Positions 1 through 5,535 of a DNA stretch of 5,535 bases are shown here, in pieces. The notes under the pieces were generated by a model. It was not told the DNA's origin. It saw only the letters and a program-made list of their open reading frames with translations, and searched no databases. Origin of the DNA: Amoebophrya sp. A120 (Eukaryota > Protista > Dinoflagellata); contig CAJINV010000027.1 of assembly GCA_905178155.1 (NCBI GenBank), positions 348,840-354,374 of the forward strand, read 5' to 3'. Numbering within the stretch: position 1 is the first letter of the stretch; each line of letters starts with the position of its first letter. Made by a program: the position numbers and the translations under genes.

Positions 1-10
1 AGGGACACTA

Positions 11-37
11 AGTATTGAAATGAAGGAGCTCAATACT
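11..37. repeat. Spaced palindrome copy 1 (TATTGA-N11-TCAATA)
   Basis: AGTATTGA-aatgaaggagc-TCAATACT; 8-bp perfect arms, 11-nt spacer. Confidence 0.85.
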
Positions 38-114
38 AAAAGGAACGCAGAGCCGTGAGAGTCTTAGTTTCCTGGATCAGTCGAGTAGATCAATACAATT
101 CACGGAATTCGTGC

Positions 115-147
115 CGACGTATTGGCTTAACGTAAATCAATACGTCG
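115..147. repeat. Spaced palindrome copy 2 (TATTGG-N11-TCAATA)
   Basis: CGACGTATTG(G)-cttaacgtaaa-(T)CAATACGTCG; 10-bp perfect arms plus a G-T position, 11-nt spacer. Confidence 0.85.
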
Positions 148-190
148 CTGATCTGCATCATTTCTACGCTTAAGCGAACAAATTTACTCA

Positions 191-283
191 ACAGTGTCCT
201 TCTGGGTATTATAAAGTATTTCCTGAACCTGTTTTGCACCACTTTGCGCTATTGAGAATTTGTGTTCTTTCCGCTGTATAGCA
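191..283 (+). repeat. 5' LTR, portion shared with the 3' LTR (likely R-U5 with or without the core promoter)
   Basis: 93/93 identical to 5229-5321 by direct comparison. Ends in ...TATAGCA just before the PBS-like site. Confidence 0.93.
210..215 (+). promoter_or_regulatory. TATAAA within the LTR (TATA box or polyadenylation signal); second copy at 5248-5253
   Basis: Motif seen in both LTR copies, followed by a T/GT-rich tract (TTTGTGTTCTTT). Function cannot be resolved from sequence alone. Confidence 0.4.
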
Positions 284-287
284 TAGA

Positions 288-296
288 GTTATGAGC
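288..296 (+). other. Primer-binding site complementary to the anticodon loop of initiator tRNA-Met (half-tRNA priming type)
   Basis: GTTATGAGC, 4 nt after the LTR-terminal CA. Its reverse complement GCTCATAAC contains the CAT anticodon loop. Resembles the Ty5/copia-type GGTTATG(A/G)GCCC PBS. Confidence 0.65.
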
Positions 297-417: not shown

Positions 418-1623
418 ATGGTCCTCGCGAAAATGTGGAAAAAGGGACGCACCGCGACGGTGGACGGCGAGACCGTCATGTTCTGCGGATGGCGCCACAG
501 TTTCGACCCGACGCTGCCGAAAACCTGCAAAGACCGAATCTTCGTCACCCGTGCGGATGGCCTTCCGGATGGTGAGGAAGATTTTACGGTCCAGGGACGG
601 AAGTATTTGGTCCGGGTTTTGAACTGCTACGCGCGCAAACTGCTACCGGAGACCAACAGCTCCCTCGTGTCGGACGCTGTTATGACGGAGATCTGCTTGA
701 CCATCGGCGAGCTGGCCGATTCTCTGGACTCGGACTTGTACACCCCGCCTGCGGACCCCACCCCTGTTGTCGTTCCGACCACGACCACCACCACAGCAGT
801 AGTTGAACAAAAAGAGCGCCCGCAGTTACCGAAATGGGACGGCAAGGAGGAGCTTGATTTGTTTCTGCAAATGGTGGACCTGTGGCGCGGCGAGCTCAAG
901 ACCCTGGGAGCCCCTGAGTTGGTGTCCGACTTCTTATCCGCTTTACCCCAGAAGGACCGAGCCGCGATTATTCGCAAAGCCGACGTCAGCACCCTGGACG
1001 TGCAAGGTGCTATCGAAATTTTATGCGAAAAAGTGAAAGGCGATGTCCGTTTCCAGATGTTCGGCGTCCTTGCGGAGTGGTTCCTGTACCGCCGCAAGAC
1101 TGGCACCAGCGTCCACGACCACCTTTCCCGCGTAAACGAGCACCGCCGTAAGGTCAAGGCGGCACTGGGCTGCACTGACGACCCGTTTCCCGATCTGTTC
1201 TGGGGATGGTATCTGCTGTTCACCGCCGCGGTGGATGAGACGGAGCTGCAGAACCTCAAGACTATGATCAACGGCAATTTCGGTTTTGCGGTTGTGAAGA
1301 ACGCCTTGATCGCGTATTTCCACAAGAGTAACCTGGCCAGCGACACCAAGGAAAACAAGGAGAACACGCTGGAGGCCCAGGTCAAGGACATCGTGAACAA
1401 GATGGGCATTCGCAAGAACAACAACAACACGAAGGACAAGAACGGAGGAGATGAAACTCACAAGCCCCGCTGTGAGTACAAGCACAACTGTAGAAAGTTG
1501 CTTTCCGGAACCTGCCCGAATTACCACCCCTTCTGGGAACTTGCCAAGGCCAAGAAGAACAAGACGAAAGTGAACAAGGCTGAGGAGGAGAAGCAGGACG
1601 GTCGTTCCTCGGAACAGCCGTGA
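418..1623 (+). CDS. gag: Gag protein (401 aa): N-terminal CAP-Gly-like region, P/T-rich linker, capsid-like region, basic C-terminus with a CCCH finger
   Basis: First long ORF after the PBS. ATG in a strong context (AAAATGG). Capsid-start-like LPKWDG...FLQMVDLW. Lys/Asn-rich nucleocapsid-like tail with C-x5-C-x7-C-x3-H. Lies directly upstream of pol. Confidence 0.88.
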   Translation: MVLAKMWKKGRTATVDGETVMFCGWRHSFDPTLPKTCKDRIFVTRADGLPDGEEDFTVQGRKYLVRVLNCYARKLLPETNSSLVSDAVMTEICLTIGELADSLDSDLYTPPADPTPVVVPTTTTTTAVVEQKERPQLPKWDGKEELDLFLQMVDLWRGELKTLGAPELVSDFLSALPQKDRAAIIRKADVSTLDVQGAIEILCEKVKGDVRFQMFGVLAEWFLYRRKTGTSVHDHLSRVNEHRRKVKAALGCTDDPFPDLFWGWYLLFTAAVDETELQNLKTMINGNFGFAVVKNALIAYFHKSNLASDTKENKENTLEAQVKDIVNKMGIRKNNNNTKDKNGGDETHKPRCEYKHNCRKLLSGTCPNYHPFWELAKAKKNKTKVNKAEEEKQDGRSSEQP

Positions 1624-1645
1624 CTAAATTCTTCTTACTTAGTCG
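1621..1645 (+). promoter_or_regulatory. Putative gag-pol stop-codon readthrough signal (UGA-CUA) with a local hairpin
   Basis: CCG TGA CTA AAT; the frame stays open from 1624 to 4767. GACTAA (1622-1627) can pair with TTAGTC (1639-1644). Confidence 0.75.
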
Positions 1646-4600
1646 AGACAGATGCTGATCACGTGCACAGCGTAGACATCCCGGGTGTATGTAACTCTAC
1701 CGAGTTCATTCCCGCGGACTACGTGCAGACGTCAGATCGTGGGGGCGTAACTTCAACCCTGTGGTCTTCGGACGGCGTGATCCGCTTCCTGTTGGATGGA
1801 GGAGCAACAAATCACTGCATTCGATTCAAGGAGCTGATCTTGAAAAACACCAACCAAAAGCGAGCCCTCGGCGGAATCTGTGGCGGTTGTACTGTGGACG
1901 TGGTCCATCTGAAGTCCATGCAGTTCCCCGGCACCTCCATGGGACTCGTCGCGACTGGCGCCATCTACTCGCCCCGGCTAACGCAAAACATCCTTGCCGA
2001 ATCAAGACTACTTGATGCTGGTTGGCGCTTTGCTGAGGACAAGAGCTCGATGTGGCACCTGACACGACCAAGCTCGAAAGTCTCCGTCGTACGCAGTGGA
2101 AACCTGTTTTGGGTCGACGTCAACGTACCCGACCTGAATTGCACCCCTGACGAAACCGATTCTACTACTAGCCTGGCCAGTGAAGACATGCTTAAGGTTT
2201 TCGCTGTTTCCCTGGACGAGCACATACGCTGCGGACGCATGCCGCTTCTGCCGCCTGGTGAGTGTGATGCTTGCGATCGCACCAAGCGACAGCGCAAGGG
2301 CATCCAGCGTTCCCGTGCTGAAGACCGTTCCCAGCTGGTGGGAGTCGTCGCGACTGACCTCTGCGGCCCGCTCCAGCCCAGTCAGGATGGGAATAAGTAT
2401 CTTCAGCTGTTTAAGCAGCTCGATACGCTCGACCTGGTTCCTACGTTTTCCAAGACGAAGCATTCTGCCGCCACCCGGACCAACCTACGGAGCTACCTCG
2501 CGGTGCGGACGAAGCCGAAAATCGTCAAAACGGACAATGGAACCGAGTTCAAGGGCGATTTCGAGAAAGAGGTAATTGATCAAGGCATACAAATACGAAA
2601 ATCGCCGGAATACTTGCCAGCCTTCAACGGAGGAGTTGAAGTGGAGAGCAGAGTGGTGATTCAGGGCGCTGCGTGCATTTTGTACGATTCTGGCGCACCT
2701 TTAGAATTTTGGCCACACGCTATCAAGTACATCTGCTACACCCTGAACCGCATGCCGCGACCGGCTTTGAAGAAGTCGCCGCACGAGGCCCGCACAGGTG
2801 TAGAGCCGAACAACGACCATCTCCGAGAATTTTGGTCGCTGGGTTATTATTTGGTGCTGAACCCGGAGCACAAGAAAACCAAATTGGAACCCCGACGCCG
2901 ACCTTGTCGCCTCCTGTCGTACTGTTTCGACAAGAGGGCCTACAATGTCTATGACGTGGACGACGAGCGCGTTGGCCCGCCGGTTTACGACGTTGTTTGG
3001 GCAAAGAACCAGTCCCCCCACCGGTCCCCCTCTGGTAAGCTTCTGGATGTCGACGGGCTGACCCCGGAAGTCGATCCTGATCAGATCGAGAGGACCATGT
3101 ACATGGGCGAGCCGGATTGGGTTTTGACCAATGAAGAAATGGCGAAATGGGACGAGTTGGTAGATCCTGACTTCATCCGAAAGTTTGAATTCGCCAACAA
3201 TGCAGTGATCGGACTAAATGAGGCTATGGCAGACACTGCAAACAAAGAAAACTGGACGAGCGGCATTACAGTCGAGTGCCGCGCGGTGGATATGTCCTGG
3301 GTATGGGAAAAGCTACCTGCCGGGCATCGAGCTCTACCGTGCCGAATCATCCTGACCCGGAAAGACGACGGAAGATTCAAGGCAAGAATAGTAGTCATCG
3401 GCTTCCTCCAGTACGTAAGTGCTGGCGATGGAACCACTTACGCACCTACACTCATGGCGGATAGCTTTCGGGCTGCTGTGGCACTGTGTGGGGCGATGGG
3501 ATGGGAGCCGGAAGGCGCTGACGTTTCGACGGCTTTCCTGCTTGCTGACATCCCGGAAGACGAAGTTATTTACGTCCACCCCCCGAAGGGATGGATTCCG
3601 AAAAACGAAGAAGACCGCAAGAAATGCGCAGACGGCTACGTTTGGCGTTTGAAGCGGGCGCTTTACGGCTTGCGGAAAAGTCCGAAGTACTGGTCTGACC
3701 ACTTCCACAAAGTCGCGACCAAGGAGTTCAAATTTATCCGATGCCCTTCCGACCGCTGCATCTACATCCATATCGAATTTGGTCACCTGACAATCATCCT
3801 GGTGTACGTCGACGACCTTGTTTTCATGGGTGTACGGGCGAAAGAGGTCAAGAAGATGGTCTTGGGTCGATTTCCCTGCCGCGATTTGGGACGACTTTCC
3901 GAGTTTCTAGGCTGCCAGGTGCTGTACCCGGGCGATAAGACTATTGTCCTGTCCCAGCAGCGCTACGTCGAGAAATTCATCAAGAAGGTTAACGTAAGCG
4001 AAAAAGGAGTGCCTACGCCGATCGAGAAAAAGCTGACGTCAATGGGTGAACCTGCACCGGTGGACAACAACACGAGGCAGATTTTGGGAACAATCGGATA
4101 CCTTCCGATCATGACCCGCCCCGACCTGTCTTTCGCGCAAGGACATTCCGCGAGGTTCGTCGCCAATCCCACCCTGGGCCACATTTCTGCGCTGAAGCAC
4201 TACGTGCGGTATGTAGCTGGAACGAAGCGCGCACGCCTGACCTACGGACCCCCAAGCAACTCCGTCAAGCTCTCGGCTAGCAAAGACAGTGATTGGAAGG
4301 GCTGCCCGGAGTCTGGTCGCTCTACTGGTGGGCATTTGATCAACATCAACGGCACTGCAGTTTGCTGGACCTCGAAGTTGATGCTGGATTCGATCAAAAT
4401 GTCTTCTACCGAGGCGGAGTATGTGCAGCTCTCGCTCTGCTCGCGAGATGTTATTTTCTTCAAGAATCTGCTAGACTGGCTGGCACAGCACGGCAAGCGG
4501 TTCGCGCTGGACCCGAATCCGGCTGAGATCGAGGAAGACAACAAAGGCTCGTTTGACTTTGTACAAGGAGCAAACACTGGAAATGGCAAACGACTCCGAC

Positions 4601-4767
4601 ACTTAGATCACCACCAGCACCATGCTCGCGATTGCGTGGAGCAGGGCATTATCAAGGTCGTGAAAGTTGAAACGGACAAAAATAGCAGCGACATCATGAC
4701 GAAACCTGCGAAATCCCGTCCCCAACTCGACCGGTTGCTCGCGAAGCACAACTTCGTGACTGAGTAA
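1624..4767 (+). CDS. pol: Pol polyprotein (protease, integrase, reverse transcriptase, RNase H), probably made as a Gag-Pol fusion 418-4767; the ORF-track GTG start at 1663 is unlikely to be the true start
   Basis: Protease FLLDGGATNH. Integrase TDLCGP / TDNGTEF / NGGVE and KLEPR..C..Y. RT FKARIV, DVSTAFL, ALYGLRKSP, YVDD. RNase H DSDW, SSTEAEY, EDNKG, RHLD, SDIMTK. No stops or frameshifts. Confidence 0.96.
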   Translation, partial: LNSSYLVETDADHVHSVDIPGVCNSTEFIPADYVQTSDRGGVTSTLWSSDGVIRFLLDGGATNHCIRFKELILKNTNQKRALGGICGGCTVDVVHLKSMQFPGTSMGLVATGAIYSPRLTQNILAESRLLDAGWRFAEDKSSMWHLTRPSSKVSVVRSGNLFWVDVNVPDLNCTPDETDSTTSLASEDMLKVFAVSLDEHIRCGRMPLLPPGECDACDRTKRQRKGIQRSRAEDRSQLVGVVATDLCGPLQPSQDGNKYLQLFKQLDTLDLVPTFSKTKHSAATRTNLRSYLAVRTKPKIVKTDNGTEFKGDFEKEVIDQGIQIRKSPEYLPAFNGGVEVESRVVIQGAACILYDSGAPLEFWPHAIKYICYTLNRMPRPALKKSPHEARTGVEPNNDHLREFWSLGYYLVLNPEHKKTKLEPRRRPCRLLSYCFDKRAYNVYDVDDERVGPPVYDVVWAKNQSPHRSPSGKLLDVDGLTPEVDPDQIERTMYMGEPDWVLTNEEMAKWDELVDPDFIRKFEFANNAVIGLNEAMADTANKENWTSGITVECRAVDMSWVWEKLPAGHRALPCRIILTRKDDGRFKARIVVIGFLQYVSAGDGTTYAPTLMADSFRAAVALCGAMGWEPEGADVSTAFLLADIPEDEVIYVHPPKGWIPKNEEDRKKCADGYVWRLKRALYGLRKSPKYWSDHFHKVATKEFKFIRCPSDRCIYIHIEFGHLTIILVYVDDLVFMGVRAKEVKKMVLGRFPCRDLGRLSEFLGCQVLYPGDKTIVLSQQRYVEKFIKKVNVSEKGVPTPIEKKLTSMGEPAPVDNNTRQILGTIGYLPIMTRPDLSFAQGHSARFVANPTLGHISALKHYVRYVAGTKRARLTYGPPSNSVKLSASKDSDWKGCPESGRSTGGHLININGTAVCWTSKLMLDSIKMSSTEAEYVQLSLCSRDVIFFKNLLDWLAQHGKRFALDPNPAEIEEDNKGSFDFVQGANTGNGKRLRHLDHHQHHARDCVEQGIIKVVKVETDKNSSDIMTKPAKSRPQLDRLLAKHNFVTE
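1777..2127 (+). other. Aspartic protease domain (approximate limits)
   Basis: LLDGGATNH with catalytic Asp at 1795-1797; copia-like downstream YSPRLTQNILAESRLLDAG. Confidence 0.8.
2221..3000 (+). other. Integrase domain (approximate limits)
   Basis: Zn-finger remnant at 2221-2274. Catalytic D at 2356, D at 2533 and E at 2638. C-terminal KLEPR...KRAY, equivalent to the copia GKGY region. Confidence 0.9.
3298..4010 (+). other. Reverse transcriptase domain, copia type (approximate limits)
   Basis: KARIVVIGFLQ, TYAPT, DVSTAFL, LYGLRKSPKYW, YVDD at 3805-3816, DLG..FLG. Confidence 0.95.
4270..4750 (+). other. RNase H domain, Ty1/copia type (approximate limits)
   Basis: DSDW (Asp at 4285), SSTEAEY, EEDNKG, SDIMTKP; all four acidic catalytic positions appear present. 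Confidence 0.93.
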
Positions 4768-4830: not shown

Positions 4831-4853
4831 TATTGAATTAAGTGAAATCAATA
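4831..4853. repeat. Spaced palindrome copy 4, in the 3' untranslated region
   Basis: TATTGA-attaagtgaaa-TCAATA; 11-nt spacer. Confidence 0.8.
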
Positions 4854-5023: not shown

Positions 5024-5032
5024 GGGGGCGTA
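5024..5032 (+). other. Polypurine tract (plus-strand primer)
   Basis: GGGGGCGTA immediately before TGCT at 5033; resembles the GGGGGCG-type PPT of copia elements. Confidence 0.65.
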
Positions 5033-5321
5033 TGCTCTGCAAGTTGTAATCGACCACGAGATCACACAAATTCTACTTCAGGTTCAAGAATGAAAATAGA
5101 TGAAATTGAAGAAAGTTCTGATTAAGTATTGAATTGAATGAATTCAATATTGGGAGCATCTTGCCACTTGACAAATGGTAAAAGAGAATCAGAATCAGAA
5201 TGAACCGCAAATGTTGAAACCACGCTTCACAGTGTCCTTCTGGGTATTATAAAGTATTTCCTGAACCTGTTTTGCACCACTTTGCGCTATTGAGAATTTG
5301 TGTTCTTTCCGCTGTATAGCA
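5033..5321 (+). repeat. 3' LTR (289 bp, TGCT...AGCA); only 5229-5321 is matched at the 5' end
   Basis: Follows the PPT and has 4-bp inverted termini TGCT/AGCA. Last 93 bp identical to 191-283. Abrupt switch to GC-rich sequence after 5321. The end is firm; the start is inferred. Confidence 0.72.
5127..5149. repeat. Spaced palindrome copy 5, in the U3-like part of the 3' LTR
   Basis: TATTGA-attgaatgaat-TCAATA; 5123-5151 matches 9-37 at 24/29 positions. Confidence 0.85.
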
Positions 5322-5324
5322 CGA

Positions 5325-5440
5325 CCTCTTGCGCCTACGCCAATCCGCAAGAGGAAGAACCAAAGAGCAGCGCCGCGCTTGTGCGGGCCAGGCGGGGAGA
5401 TTGCTGCATCCCTCTCGCGCCTACCCCTGTCCGCGAGAGG
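5325..5440. repeat. Two related hairpin units in the right flank (5325-5354 and 5411-5440)
   Basis: CCTCTTGCG-cctacgccaatc-CGCAAGAGG and CCTCTCGCG-cctacccctgtc-CGCGAGAGG; 9-bp perfect stems, 12-nt loops, 86 bp apart. Confidence 0.8.
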
Positions 5441-5535
5441 AAAAAAACCGCCAGCCCCGCACCAAAAGCGGCCGCGGGAAGCGGCTGCGATCTGCCTCGC
5501 GCGCGGCTGCTCGCCATTGGGAAAAGCTGCCAACC

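What the first reader, a model, noticed from the sequence alone, without database searches (positions are those of the whole stretch)
433..651. Gag N-terminus resembles a degenerate CAP-Gly (microtubule/tubulin-tail binding) domain
Seen: before the P/T linker and the capsid-like region, Gag has an extra region of about 110 aa containing WKKGRTATVDGETVMFCG...RIFV...GEEDFTVQGRKYL (GEEDFTVQGRKYL at 571-609). From recall, the dynactin p150Glued CAP-Gly reads ...GTVAYVG...WVGV...GKNDGTVQGRKYF. TVQGRKY is identical, and the G-x-x-D and TV-x-aromatic-x-G elements are in the same order. The GKNDG loop that binds acidic EEY/F tails is changed to acidic GEEDF, so the specificity would be altered. Inference: a captured cytoskeletal module displayed on the virus-like particle, possibly for microtubule or dynein trafficking or access to the nucleus. 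I know of no described copia Gag with CAP-Gly. The match is by eye only.
Basis: partly seen in the sequence, partly recalled or inferred. Interest (0 to 1): 0.8.

Follow-up and report, generated by a model that had tools for sequence, protein, structure and literature searches.

The report
Copia capsid barrel shared with Helitron
The capsid protein of this jumping gene starts with a small domain, predicted to fold as an SH3-like barrel, that also sits in four copies at the front of an unrelated Helitron transposase from the marine parasite Amoebophrya; it is probably not the microtubule-binding CAP-Gly domain first proposed and more likely grips DNA, RNA or chromatin.

Summary
The motif is real. 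GEEDFTVQGRKYL (571-609) matches dynactin p150Glued at 9 of 13 positions. CAP-Gly membership fails: there is no Pfam CAP_GLY hit (control E 1e-18), GKNDG-type loops occur in 0 of 17 homologous sequences, and profile comparisons are not significant.

The region is a genuine domain. Twelve sister Gags carry N-terminal extensions, 9 of 12 homologous by leave-one-out. AlphaFold2 with a 14-row alignment gives a small beta-barrel plus helix (pLDDT 76). It matches KOW, Tudor and eL27 barrels at Z 3.5-4.1; CAP-Gly chains tie at Z 3.0-3.2.

Unexpectedly, the closest relative is four tandem copies heading an Amoebophrya Helitron Rep-helicase (40% identical), closer than any sister Gag (12-22%).

The element belongs to a distinct Copia clade with a CCCH finger instead of the CCHC knuckle and a conserved gag-UGA-C-pol junction. 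The barrel's ligand is inferred, most likely nucleic acid or chromatin; remote CAP-Gly ancestry is not excluded.

The parts
436..651 (+). Predicted SH3-like small beta-barrel of Gag (aa 7-78); the part shared with the Helitron repeats
   Evidence: AF2 strands 12-15, 18-25, 40-45, 56-58, 61-69, 74-75; fold matches over about residues 3-75; 29 of 73 identical to P0061 repeat 1
571..609 (+). GEEDFTVQGRKYL: loop and hairpin between strands 3 and 4 that resemble the p150Glued motif
673..726 (+). Predicted helix (aa 86-103) following the barrel
733..816 (+). Pro/Thr-rich linker
   Evidence: sequence; low-complexity linkers in sister Gags
817..1320 (+). Capsid-like region of Gag
   Evidence: a profile of it hits four Gag-type proteins at E 1e-4 to 2e-14 that carry weak Pfam Retrotran_gag_2 hits; no direct Pfam or PDB hit
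1471..1527 (+). CCCH zinc finger (C-x5-C-x7-C-x3-H) in place of the CCHC knuckle
   Evidence: strict CCCH pattern in 9 of 14 Gags, CCHC in 0 of 14; weak Pfam zf-CCCH_2 in sisters
418..1623 (+). gag ORF, ending in TGA followed by CTA, in frame with pol
   Evidence: TGA-C junction in 4 of 4 elements with DNA
1624..4767 (+). pol ORF in Copia order: protease (motif 1789-1815), integrase (2218-2652), SH3 (2797-2973), RT (3298-4026), RNase H (4282-4704)
   Evidence: Pfam RVT_2 E 9e-37 and SH3_retrovirus E 1e-10; motif positions; alignment with sisters
191..283 (+). Last 93 bp of the 5' LTR (truncated in the window), identical to 5229-5321
284..296 (+). Likely primer-binding site TAGAGTTATGAGC; resembles half-tRNA-iMet sites of copia and Ty5 (site sequence recalled)
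   Evidence: same sequence after ...CA in sister L001; half-tRNA priming described in PMC5371799 passages
5024..5032 (+). Likely polypurine tract
   Evidence: sequence directly before the TG at 5033
5033..5321 (+). Likely 3' LTR (TG...CA); boundaries inferred

Best explanation
The first ~105 residues of Gag form a domain, predicted to be an SH3-like (KOW/Tudor-type) barrel plus a helix, that recurs in a distinct Copia clade and in four tandem copies at the front of an Amoebophrya Helitron Rep-helicase, and that likely binds nucleic acid or chromatin rather than tubulin.

Shown: the domain's sequence family, its presence in both element types, and the failure of the CAP-Gly tests. Predicted: the barrel fold. 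Inferred: tethered to the capsid by a flexible linker, it would be displayed in many copies on the virus-like particle (outward orientation recalled from Ty1 and retroviruses, not checked). The Helitron would get the same avidity by tandem repetition. The need common to a capsid and a rolling-circle transposase is access to the host genome, so the likeliest job is gripping DNA, RNA or chromatin (particle assembly on RNA, nuclear delivery or target choice). The likeliest history is capture of the barrel from a Copia close to this one by the Helitron, followed by duplication; the direction is inferred.
For: (1) Family: a profile of three Gags scored against 1.84 billion proteins gave 60 hits at E<=0.001. 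Twelve full-length sister Gags have an N-terminal extension; 9 of 12 are recovered by a profile of the others with 0 of 200 shuffles as good. A profile of sister Gags alone finds the window domain (P 9e-5) and Helitron repeat 2 (P 4e-5). Gly10 is kept in 12 of 14 rows, Asp51 in 12, Arg40 in 10, and hydrophobic 41-42 in 14.
(2) Fold: pLDDT 81-88 over residues 11-70, pTM 0.63. At least 26 of the top 50 rows among 48,161 chains are small barrels (NusG/RfaH/Spt5 KOW, Tudor, eL21, eL27, PsaE, CarD; folds partly recalled). The best are Z 4.1, rmsd 2.8, 45 aligned and Z 4.0, rmsd 2.1-2.9, 45-51 aligned. Foldseek ranks eL27 first (TM 0.44).
(3) Helitron: P0061 (EukProt, Amoebophrya sp. AT5.2) has Pfam Helitron_like_N at E 2.5e-8 and Rep and Pif1 motifs. 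Its four repeats match at E 8e-16 to 9e-7 pairwise (library E 2.4e-7). It has no capsid match. The repeats join the window domain in the tree (86/84).
(4) Ligand: Arg11, Lys62, Arg66, Arg73 and Lys74 are shared by the window and the full-length Helitron repeats. Lys+Arg exceeds Asp+Glu in the first 80 residues (14 v 10).
Against: All fold scores are middling (no Z>=5, Foldseek E>=0.45), so 'SH3-like' rests on the recurrence of barrels in the list and on a 14-row model. No binding was tested. Net charge is not uniformly basic: Lys+Arg exceeds Asp+Glu in 11 of 17 sequences. Three of 12 sister extensions (P0046, P0047, P0051) are not shown to be homologous. Repeats 1 and 3 are not found by the sister-Gag-only profile (P 0.055, 0.043). 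The Helitron is one gene model whose DNA I could not see, so the fusion could be a mis-prediction or a passenger capture. The tree branch is not starred and the tree is unrooted, so direction is not shown. Only one non-Gag carrier was found, with a whole-Gag profile; a host source gene could have been missed.
Confidence: 0.5

Rival explanations
1. The barrel is a remote, eroded descendant of a host CAP-Gly domain. It may still touch microtubules or have switched ligand.
For: 9 of 13 identity to p150Glued. The Helitron repeats keep G-x2-D-x4-G-x-K-Y-F spacing (6 of 13 in three repeats; 4-6 of 1000 shuffles). The hairpin is predicted between strands 3 and 4. CAP-Gly chains 2qk0 (Z 3.2, rmsd 3.3, 52 aligned) and 1txq_A (Z 3.0, rmsd 3.6, 55 aligned) are tied with the top of that list. 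Window+Helitron profile v CAP-Gly gives pairwise E 0.019-0.054. The family's RIFAVE strand lines up by eye with CAP-Gly's W-x-G-V-E-L strand.
Against: No Pfam CAP_GLY hit in 14 of 14 rows. GKNDG-type loop in 0 of 17. The full-family profile gives HHalign probability 0.1% and scores two real CAP-Gly domains at chance (184 and 76 of 500 shuffles). The sequence after RKY runs straight into strand 4 and lacks the Cys...Gly-x-Phe segment. Loss of Lys or Asn in GKNDG harms tail binding (PMC3806363, passages). My CAP-Gly profile was shallow (2-5 rows), which limits this test.
Confidence: 0.15
2. The barrel binds a host protein (nuclear-import factor, RNA polymerase or silencing machinery), as KOW/Tudor barrels of NusG, CarD, Mfd and UvrD do, giving both elements nuclear entry or protection.
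For: Many top fold matches are protein-binding barrels (NusG, RfaH, CarD, UvrD C-terminal, Sgf29, TDRD3). The high similarity between the window and the Amoebophrya Helitron, against 12-22% to other Gags, fits a host-lineage-specific partner.
Against: No partner was identified. A shared fold shows no function.
Confidence: 0.2
3. The barrel is a structural Gag part (assembly or matrix-like role, like the N-terminal region of Ty1 Gag), and the Helitron copies are passengers picked up by gene capture or joined by the gene predictor.
For: Helitrons capture gene fragments routinely (PMC11417382, section 22 read). The Ty1 Gag N-terminal region is needed for particle assembly (bioRxiv 10.1101/2023.02.27.530227, passages). 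There is only one Helitron example, and two of its four repeats are partial.
Against: The four repeats sit in one predicted ORF although repeats 1 and 2 are only 62 of 103 identical. The match covers the barrel exactly (aa 7-78) and no capsid sequence.
Confidence: 0.15

Closest known systems
CAP-Gly domain (Pfam PF01302; p150Glued 1txq, CLIP-170 2qk0)
   Same: SH3-like barrel class; a hairpin between strands 3 and 4; 9 of 13 identical residues with p150Glued in that hairpin region; structural alignment at Z 3.0-3.2.
   Different: No GKNDG loop (0 of 17), no glycine in the third strand, no Cys...Gly-x-Phe segment, no significant profile match, and a C-terminal helix is added.
KOW/Tudor-type small beta-barrels (NusG/RfaH/Spt5 KOW, ribosomal eL27/eL21, Tudor, CarD and UvrD C-terminal domains)
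   Same: Best structural matches (Z 3.5-4.1); eL27 aligns over barrel and helix (82-88 residues).
   Different: No sequence similarity (4-19% in structural alignments), no Pfam hit, and a long insertion between strands 3 and 4. No single family stands above the rest.
Ty1/Copia LTR retrotransposons (Pseudoviridae); Candida albicans Tca2 for the gag-UGA-pol junction
   Same: PR-IN-RT-RH order, RVT_2, Pol SH3 domain, likely half-tRNA priming; in-frame UGA between gag and pol as in Tca2 (PMC2194720, abstract).
   Different: Folded N-terminal barrel on Gag (the Ty1 region is disordered and prion-like); CCCH finger instead of CCHC; long-branch RT clade of its own (5 rows, SH-aLRT 100).
Helitron Rep-helicases with captured accessory domains (RPA, OTU, EN, B3 and others)
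   Same: An extra domain fused ahead of RepHel, as in other capture events (PMC11417382, section 22).
   Different: The extra domain's only known relatives here are retrotransposon Gag heads. No such domain is named in the section read; supplementary Table S11 with all 20 domains was not seen.

Membership tests
CAP-Gly (PF01302) | Match to the family profile above its cut-off | tested here: not met
   No CAP_GLY hit for the window or 14 of 14 alignment rows at E<=10 (HMMER filters drop weak hits). Positive control L082 scored 67 bits, E 1e-18.
CAP-Gly (PF01302) | GKNDG-type tubulin-tail loop (PMC3806363, passages) | tested here: not met
   0 of 17 sequences; the window reads GEEDF, Helitron repeats GAEDF.
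CAP-Gly (PF01302) | Conserved structural glycines and C-terminal Cys...Gly-x-Phe strand forming the groove floor | tested here: not met
   In alignment A6 the third strand is RIF[AV] with no glycine. Gly24 is in 1 of 14 rows and Gly60 in 6 of 14; no Cys...Gly-x-Phe follows the hairpin (CAP-Gly reference columns).
CAP-Gly (PF01302) | CAP-Gly fold, preferred over other barrels | tested here: inconclusive
   2qk0 Z 3.2 (rmsd 3.3, 52 aligned) and 1txq_A Z 3.0 (rmsd 3.6, 55 aligned) are tied with eL27, Tudor, PWWP and TnsB rows.
CAP-Gly (PF01302) | Binding to EEY/F tails or microtubules | not testable with these tools
   Needs a bench assay.
SH3-like small beta-barrel (fold level) | Five-stranded barrel core of about 50 residues | tested here: met
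   Predicted strands; 45-51 residues align at rmsd 2.1-2.9 to KOW and SH3 barrels, Z about 4. Moderate support only.
KOW or Tudor superfamily specifically | Sequence signature (KOW motif; Tudor aromatic cage) | tested here: inconclusive
   No Pfam hit.
Ty1/Copia (Pseudoviridae) | Pol order PR-IN-RT-RH with Copia-type RT | tested here: met
Ty1/Copia (Pseudoviridae) | Two LTRs with PBS and PPT | tested here: inconclusive
   A 93-bp identical repeat, a PBS-like site shared with L001 and a PPT-like tract are present. The 5' LTR is truncated in the window and no target-site duplication is visible.
Helitron RepHel (for P0061) | HUH Rep motifs plus Pif1 helicase motifs | tested here: met
   Helitron_like_N 34.8 bits, above the 28.9 cut-off; PIF1 weak, E 0.014; motifs located. 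Element ends were not seen.

The most novel reading that the evidence does not exclude
A host CAP-Gly domain was captured by an ancestral protist Copia element, eroded into a new-specificity barrel worn on the capsid, and was then taken over and quadruplicated by a Helitron. That would be a portable nuclear-access or targeting module traded between a retrotransposon capsid and a rolling-circle transposase in Amoebophrya. The cross-class sharing of a functional module is fairly likely (about 0.5); the CAP-Gly origin with a cytoskeletal role is the long shot.
Probability: 0.12. Interest if true: 0.8.

Novelty: new variant of a known kind. Interest (0 to 1): 0.52.

Why it matters
What Gag N-terminal extensions do, and how retrotransposon particles reach the genome, is poorly known outside yeast. 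Here a folded, unannotated domain is fixed at the head of Gag across a whole Copia clade and reused in tandem by an unrelated DNA transposase. If both use it, it marks a host feature that two classes of mobile element need, and it is small enough to express and test directly. The clade also swaps the CCHC knuckle for a CCCH finger and keeps a UGA-C junction, giving a natural test set for stop-codon readthrough in Copia elements.

Tried and rejected
CAP-Gly by sequence: Pfam, NCBIfam and PDB sequence searches with the domain, the motif region and two profiles gave no CAP-Gly hit. Pairwise and profile comparisons with two real CAP-Gly domains were not significant beyond the motif. No CAP-Gly chain is among the 50 rows shown of 826 at Z>=2 in the wide fold search, which does not exclude it. 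The viral structure library gave nothing at E<=0.001.

The single-sequence model was unusable (pLDDT 39). Word-index searches with Gag found no new relatives. Pairwise comparison of the window domain with the L001 and L002 domains alone was at chance; homology emerged only with more rows. Alignment A5 with whole proteins was misaligned and not used.

Dropped rows: of the 60 hits, fragments P0045, P0052, P0053, P0057 and P0058 (no N-terminus), four capsid-only Gags, and the hits matching only the zinc-finger region were left out of the domain alignment. Helitron repeat 3 was left out of the tree, where the one-clade test was uninformative about direction.

No whole genome is held, so the Helitron could not be sought in this host. 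The protein atlas did not complete and the complex predictor was not available, so self-association is untested. Expression: no RNA holder was listed, and three RNA runs laid no reads anywhere, so they are no test. No tRNA or Rfam hit. The RNA after the UGA folds no better than shuffles (z -1.5).

Literature searches found no described CAP-Gly Gag, no CCCH-finger Copia Gag, and no Gag-derived or Tudor/SH3 Helitron head, judged from search listings. A source for the outward orientation of the Gag N-terminus was not found.

Full report
Anatomy. The window holds a Copia-type LTR retrotransposon. gag runs 418-1623 and pol 1624-4767 in the same frame, separated by TGA followed by CTA. Pol has the order protease, integrase, SH3, RT, RNase H. 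A 93-bp identical repeat (191-283 = 5229-5321) is the end of the LTR. A PBS-like site follows the 5' copy and recurs in sister L001. A public contig spans 191-5062 with no differences, though it may be the window's own source sample. The host is not given. The closest named relative of the domain is from Amoebophrya, and unreviewed notes on this genome also say Amoebophrya.

The observation. GEEDFTVQGRKYL is at 571-609, and p150Glued chains in the PDB do show TVQGRKY in the recalled context: 9 of 13 identical. Against that single motif the match beats 5000 of 5000 shuffles. At library scale it is expected tens to hundreds of times (assumed mean lengths). Real PDB searches list Gemin2 and a defensin for this stretch and no CAP-Gly chain. 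Pfam gives no CAP_GLY hit, while a control domain scores E 1e-18. Whole-domain scores against two real CAP-Gly domains are suggestive for the window (12 and 43 of 2000 shuffles) and at chance for the two sister domains tested.

The family. Pol searches gave four close relatives (40-43% identity) and three loci with DNA. In a tree of 22 RT-RNase H regions, the window and those four form a long-branch clade (SH-aLRT 100). All 4 of 4 elements with DNA end gag with TGA-C in frame with pol, as Tca2 does with UGA (PMC2194720, abstract seen). A three-Gag profile against 1.84 billion proteins gave 60 hits. Twelve are full-length sister Gags with an N-terminal extension. Leave-one-out profiles recover 9 of the 12 with 0 of 200 shuffles as good; P0046, P0047 and P0051 are not shown. 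A strict CCCH pattern occurs in 9 of 14 Gags and CCHC in 0 of 14. Four more distant Gag proteins match the capsid only and lack the domain.

The surprise. The only non-Gag carrier found is P0061, a 1773-residue Helitron Rep-helicase from Amoebophrya sp. AT5.2. Its first 400 residues hold four tandem copies of the domain, two of them partial. Repeat 1 is 29 of 73 identical to window residues 7-78 (pairwise E 8e-16; library E 2.4e-7), whereas sister Gag domains are 12-22% identical to the window's. P0061 has no capsid match. The repeats join the window domain in the tree at 86/84, not starred; the tree is unrooted and the one-clade test said nothing on direction. Capture by the Helitron is inferred from the domain's depth among Gags and from known Helitron behaviour (PMC11417382, passages and section 22 read; its Table S11 not seen). 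P0061 is one gene model whose DNA I could not read.

The fold. With a 14-row alignment AlphaFold2 gave mean pLDDT 75.7 (81-88 over residues 11-70), six strands and a helix at 86-103. Against 48,161 chains none reached Z 5, but at least 26 of the top 50 are small SH3-like barrels: KOW domains of NusG, RfaH and Spt5, Tudor domains, eL21, eL27, PsaE, CarD (folds partly recalled). Foldseek ranks eL27 first. In the second look at 787 chains, CLIP-170 CAP-Gly (Z 3.2, rmsd 3.3, 52 aligned) and p150Glued (Z 3.0, rmsd 3.6, 55 aligned, 11% identity) are present but tied with eL27, Tudor, PWWP and TnsB rows. The full-family profile against CAP-Gly gives probability 0.1%. Only the window+Helitron subgroup keeps a weak signal (pairwise E 0.019-0.054). 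My CAP-Gly profile had just 2-5 rows, so remote ancestry stays open. The Lys and Asn needed for tail binding (PMC3806363, passages) are absent.

How it likely works. Shown: domain family, co-occurrence in Gag and Helitron, failed CAP-Gly tests. Predicted: the barrel. Inferred: on a flexible linker ahead of the capsid it would be shown in many copies per particle (orientation recalled), and the Helitron gains avidity by repetition. Basic residues Arg11, Lys62, Arg66, Arg73 and Lys74 are shared with the full-length repeats, although overall charge is not uniformly basic (11 of 17). A capsid and a rolling-circle transposase both need access to the host genome, so nucleic-acid or chromatin binding is my first choice (0.5). 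Rivals are a host-protein partner (0.2), CAP-Gly descent (0.15), and a purely structural Gag role with passenger Helitron copies (0.15); the Ty1 N-terminal region offers a precedent for the last (bioRxiv 10.1101/2023.02.27.530227, passages).

Novelty. Search listings showed no CAP-Gly Gag, no CCCH Copia Gag and no Gag-derived Helitron head. Passages of two Amoebophrya papers mention LTR elements only in general (PMC7789003; PMC12130899); PMC11889832 had nothing relevant. Two unreviewed notes of this scan describe other protist Gags with a PB1 head and a CCCH finger, so folded heads with CCCH fingers may recur; I did not test those. Verdict: a new variant of a known kind, interest 0.52.

Noticed in passing
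window 13-35, 120-142, 372-394, 4831-4853, 5127-5149: Five copies of the spaced palindrome TATTG-N13-CAATA, all outside the ORFs (0 of 200 shuffles give 5, pattern chosen after seeing it). Four of five fold as hairpins at z -2.6 to -4.0. Absent from L001-L003. Looks like a site for a dimeric DNA-binding protein or a repeated RNA hairpin.
   Followed up: partly
window 1621-1626; L001:1738-1743; L002:1578-1583; L003:130-135: gag ends in TGA followed by C (CTA, CTC, CAG, CTG) in frame with pol in 4 of 4 elements; likely stop-codon readthrough across the clade.
   Followed up: partly
window 1471-1527: CCCH zinc finger replaces the CCHC knuckle (strict pattern 9 of 14 Gags, CCHC 0 of 14). The profile also pulls in many multi-finger host-like proteins.
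   Followed up: partly
window 2218-2274: The integrase zinc-binding motif lacks its second His (Arg here) where 4 of 4 sisters have His; a Cys lies two residues earlier.
   Followed up: no
window 1-190 and 5322-5535: Flanks are repeats: about 94x depth at the 5' side against 25x for the element, and a roughly 200-bp tandem repeat at thousands-fold depth at the 3' side. The 5' LTR is cut to 93 bp; whether by nesting or assembly is unresolved.
   Followed up: partly
L082:2-508: A bona fide CAP-Gly domain (Pfam E 1e-18) ends an ORF on a 125-kb giant-virus MAG contig; host contamination was not excluded.
   Followed up: no
L131 (G001:C1:4846165-4846353), L132/L134 (G002), L133 (G003): Eukaryotic-looking CAP-Gly genes, some split as if by introns, inside prokaryote MAGs; probably contamination.
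   Followed up: no
L001:295-371: Three to four 23-bp tandem repeats upstream of gag in this sister, where the window has a palindrome instead.
   Followed up: no
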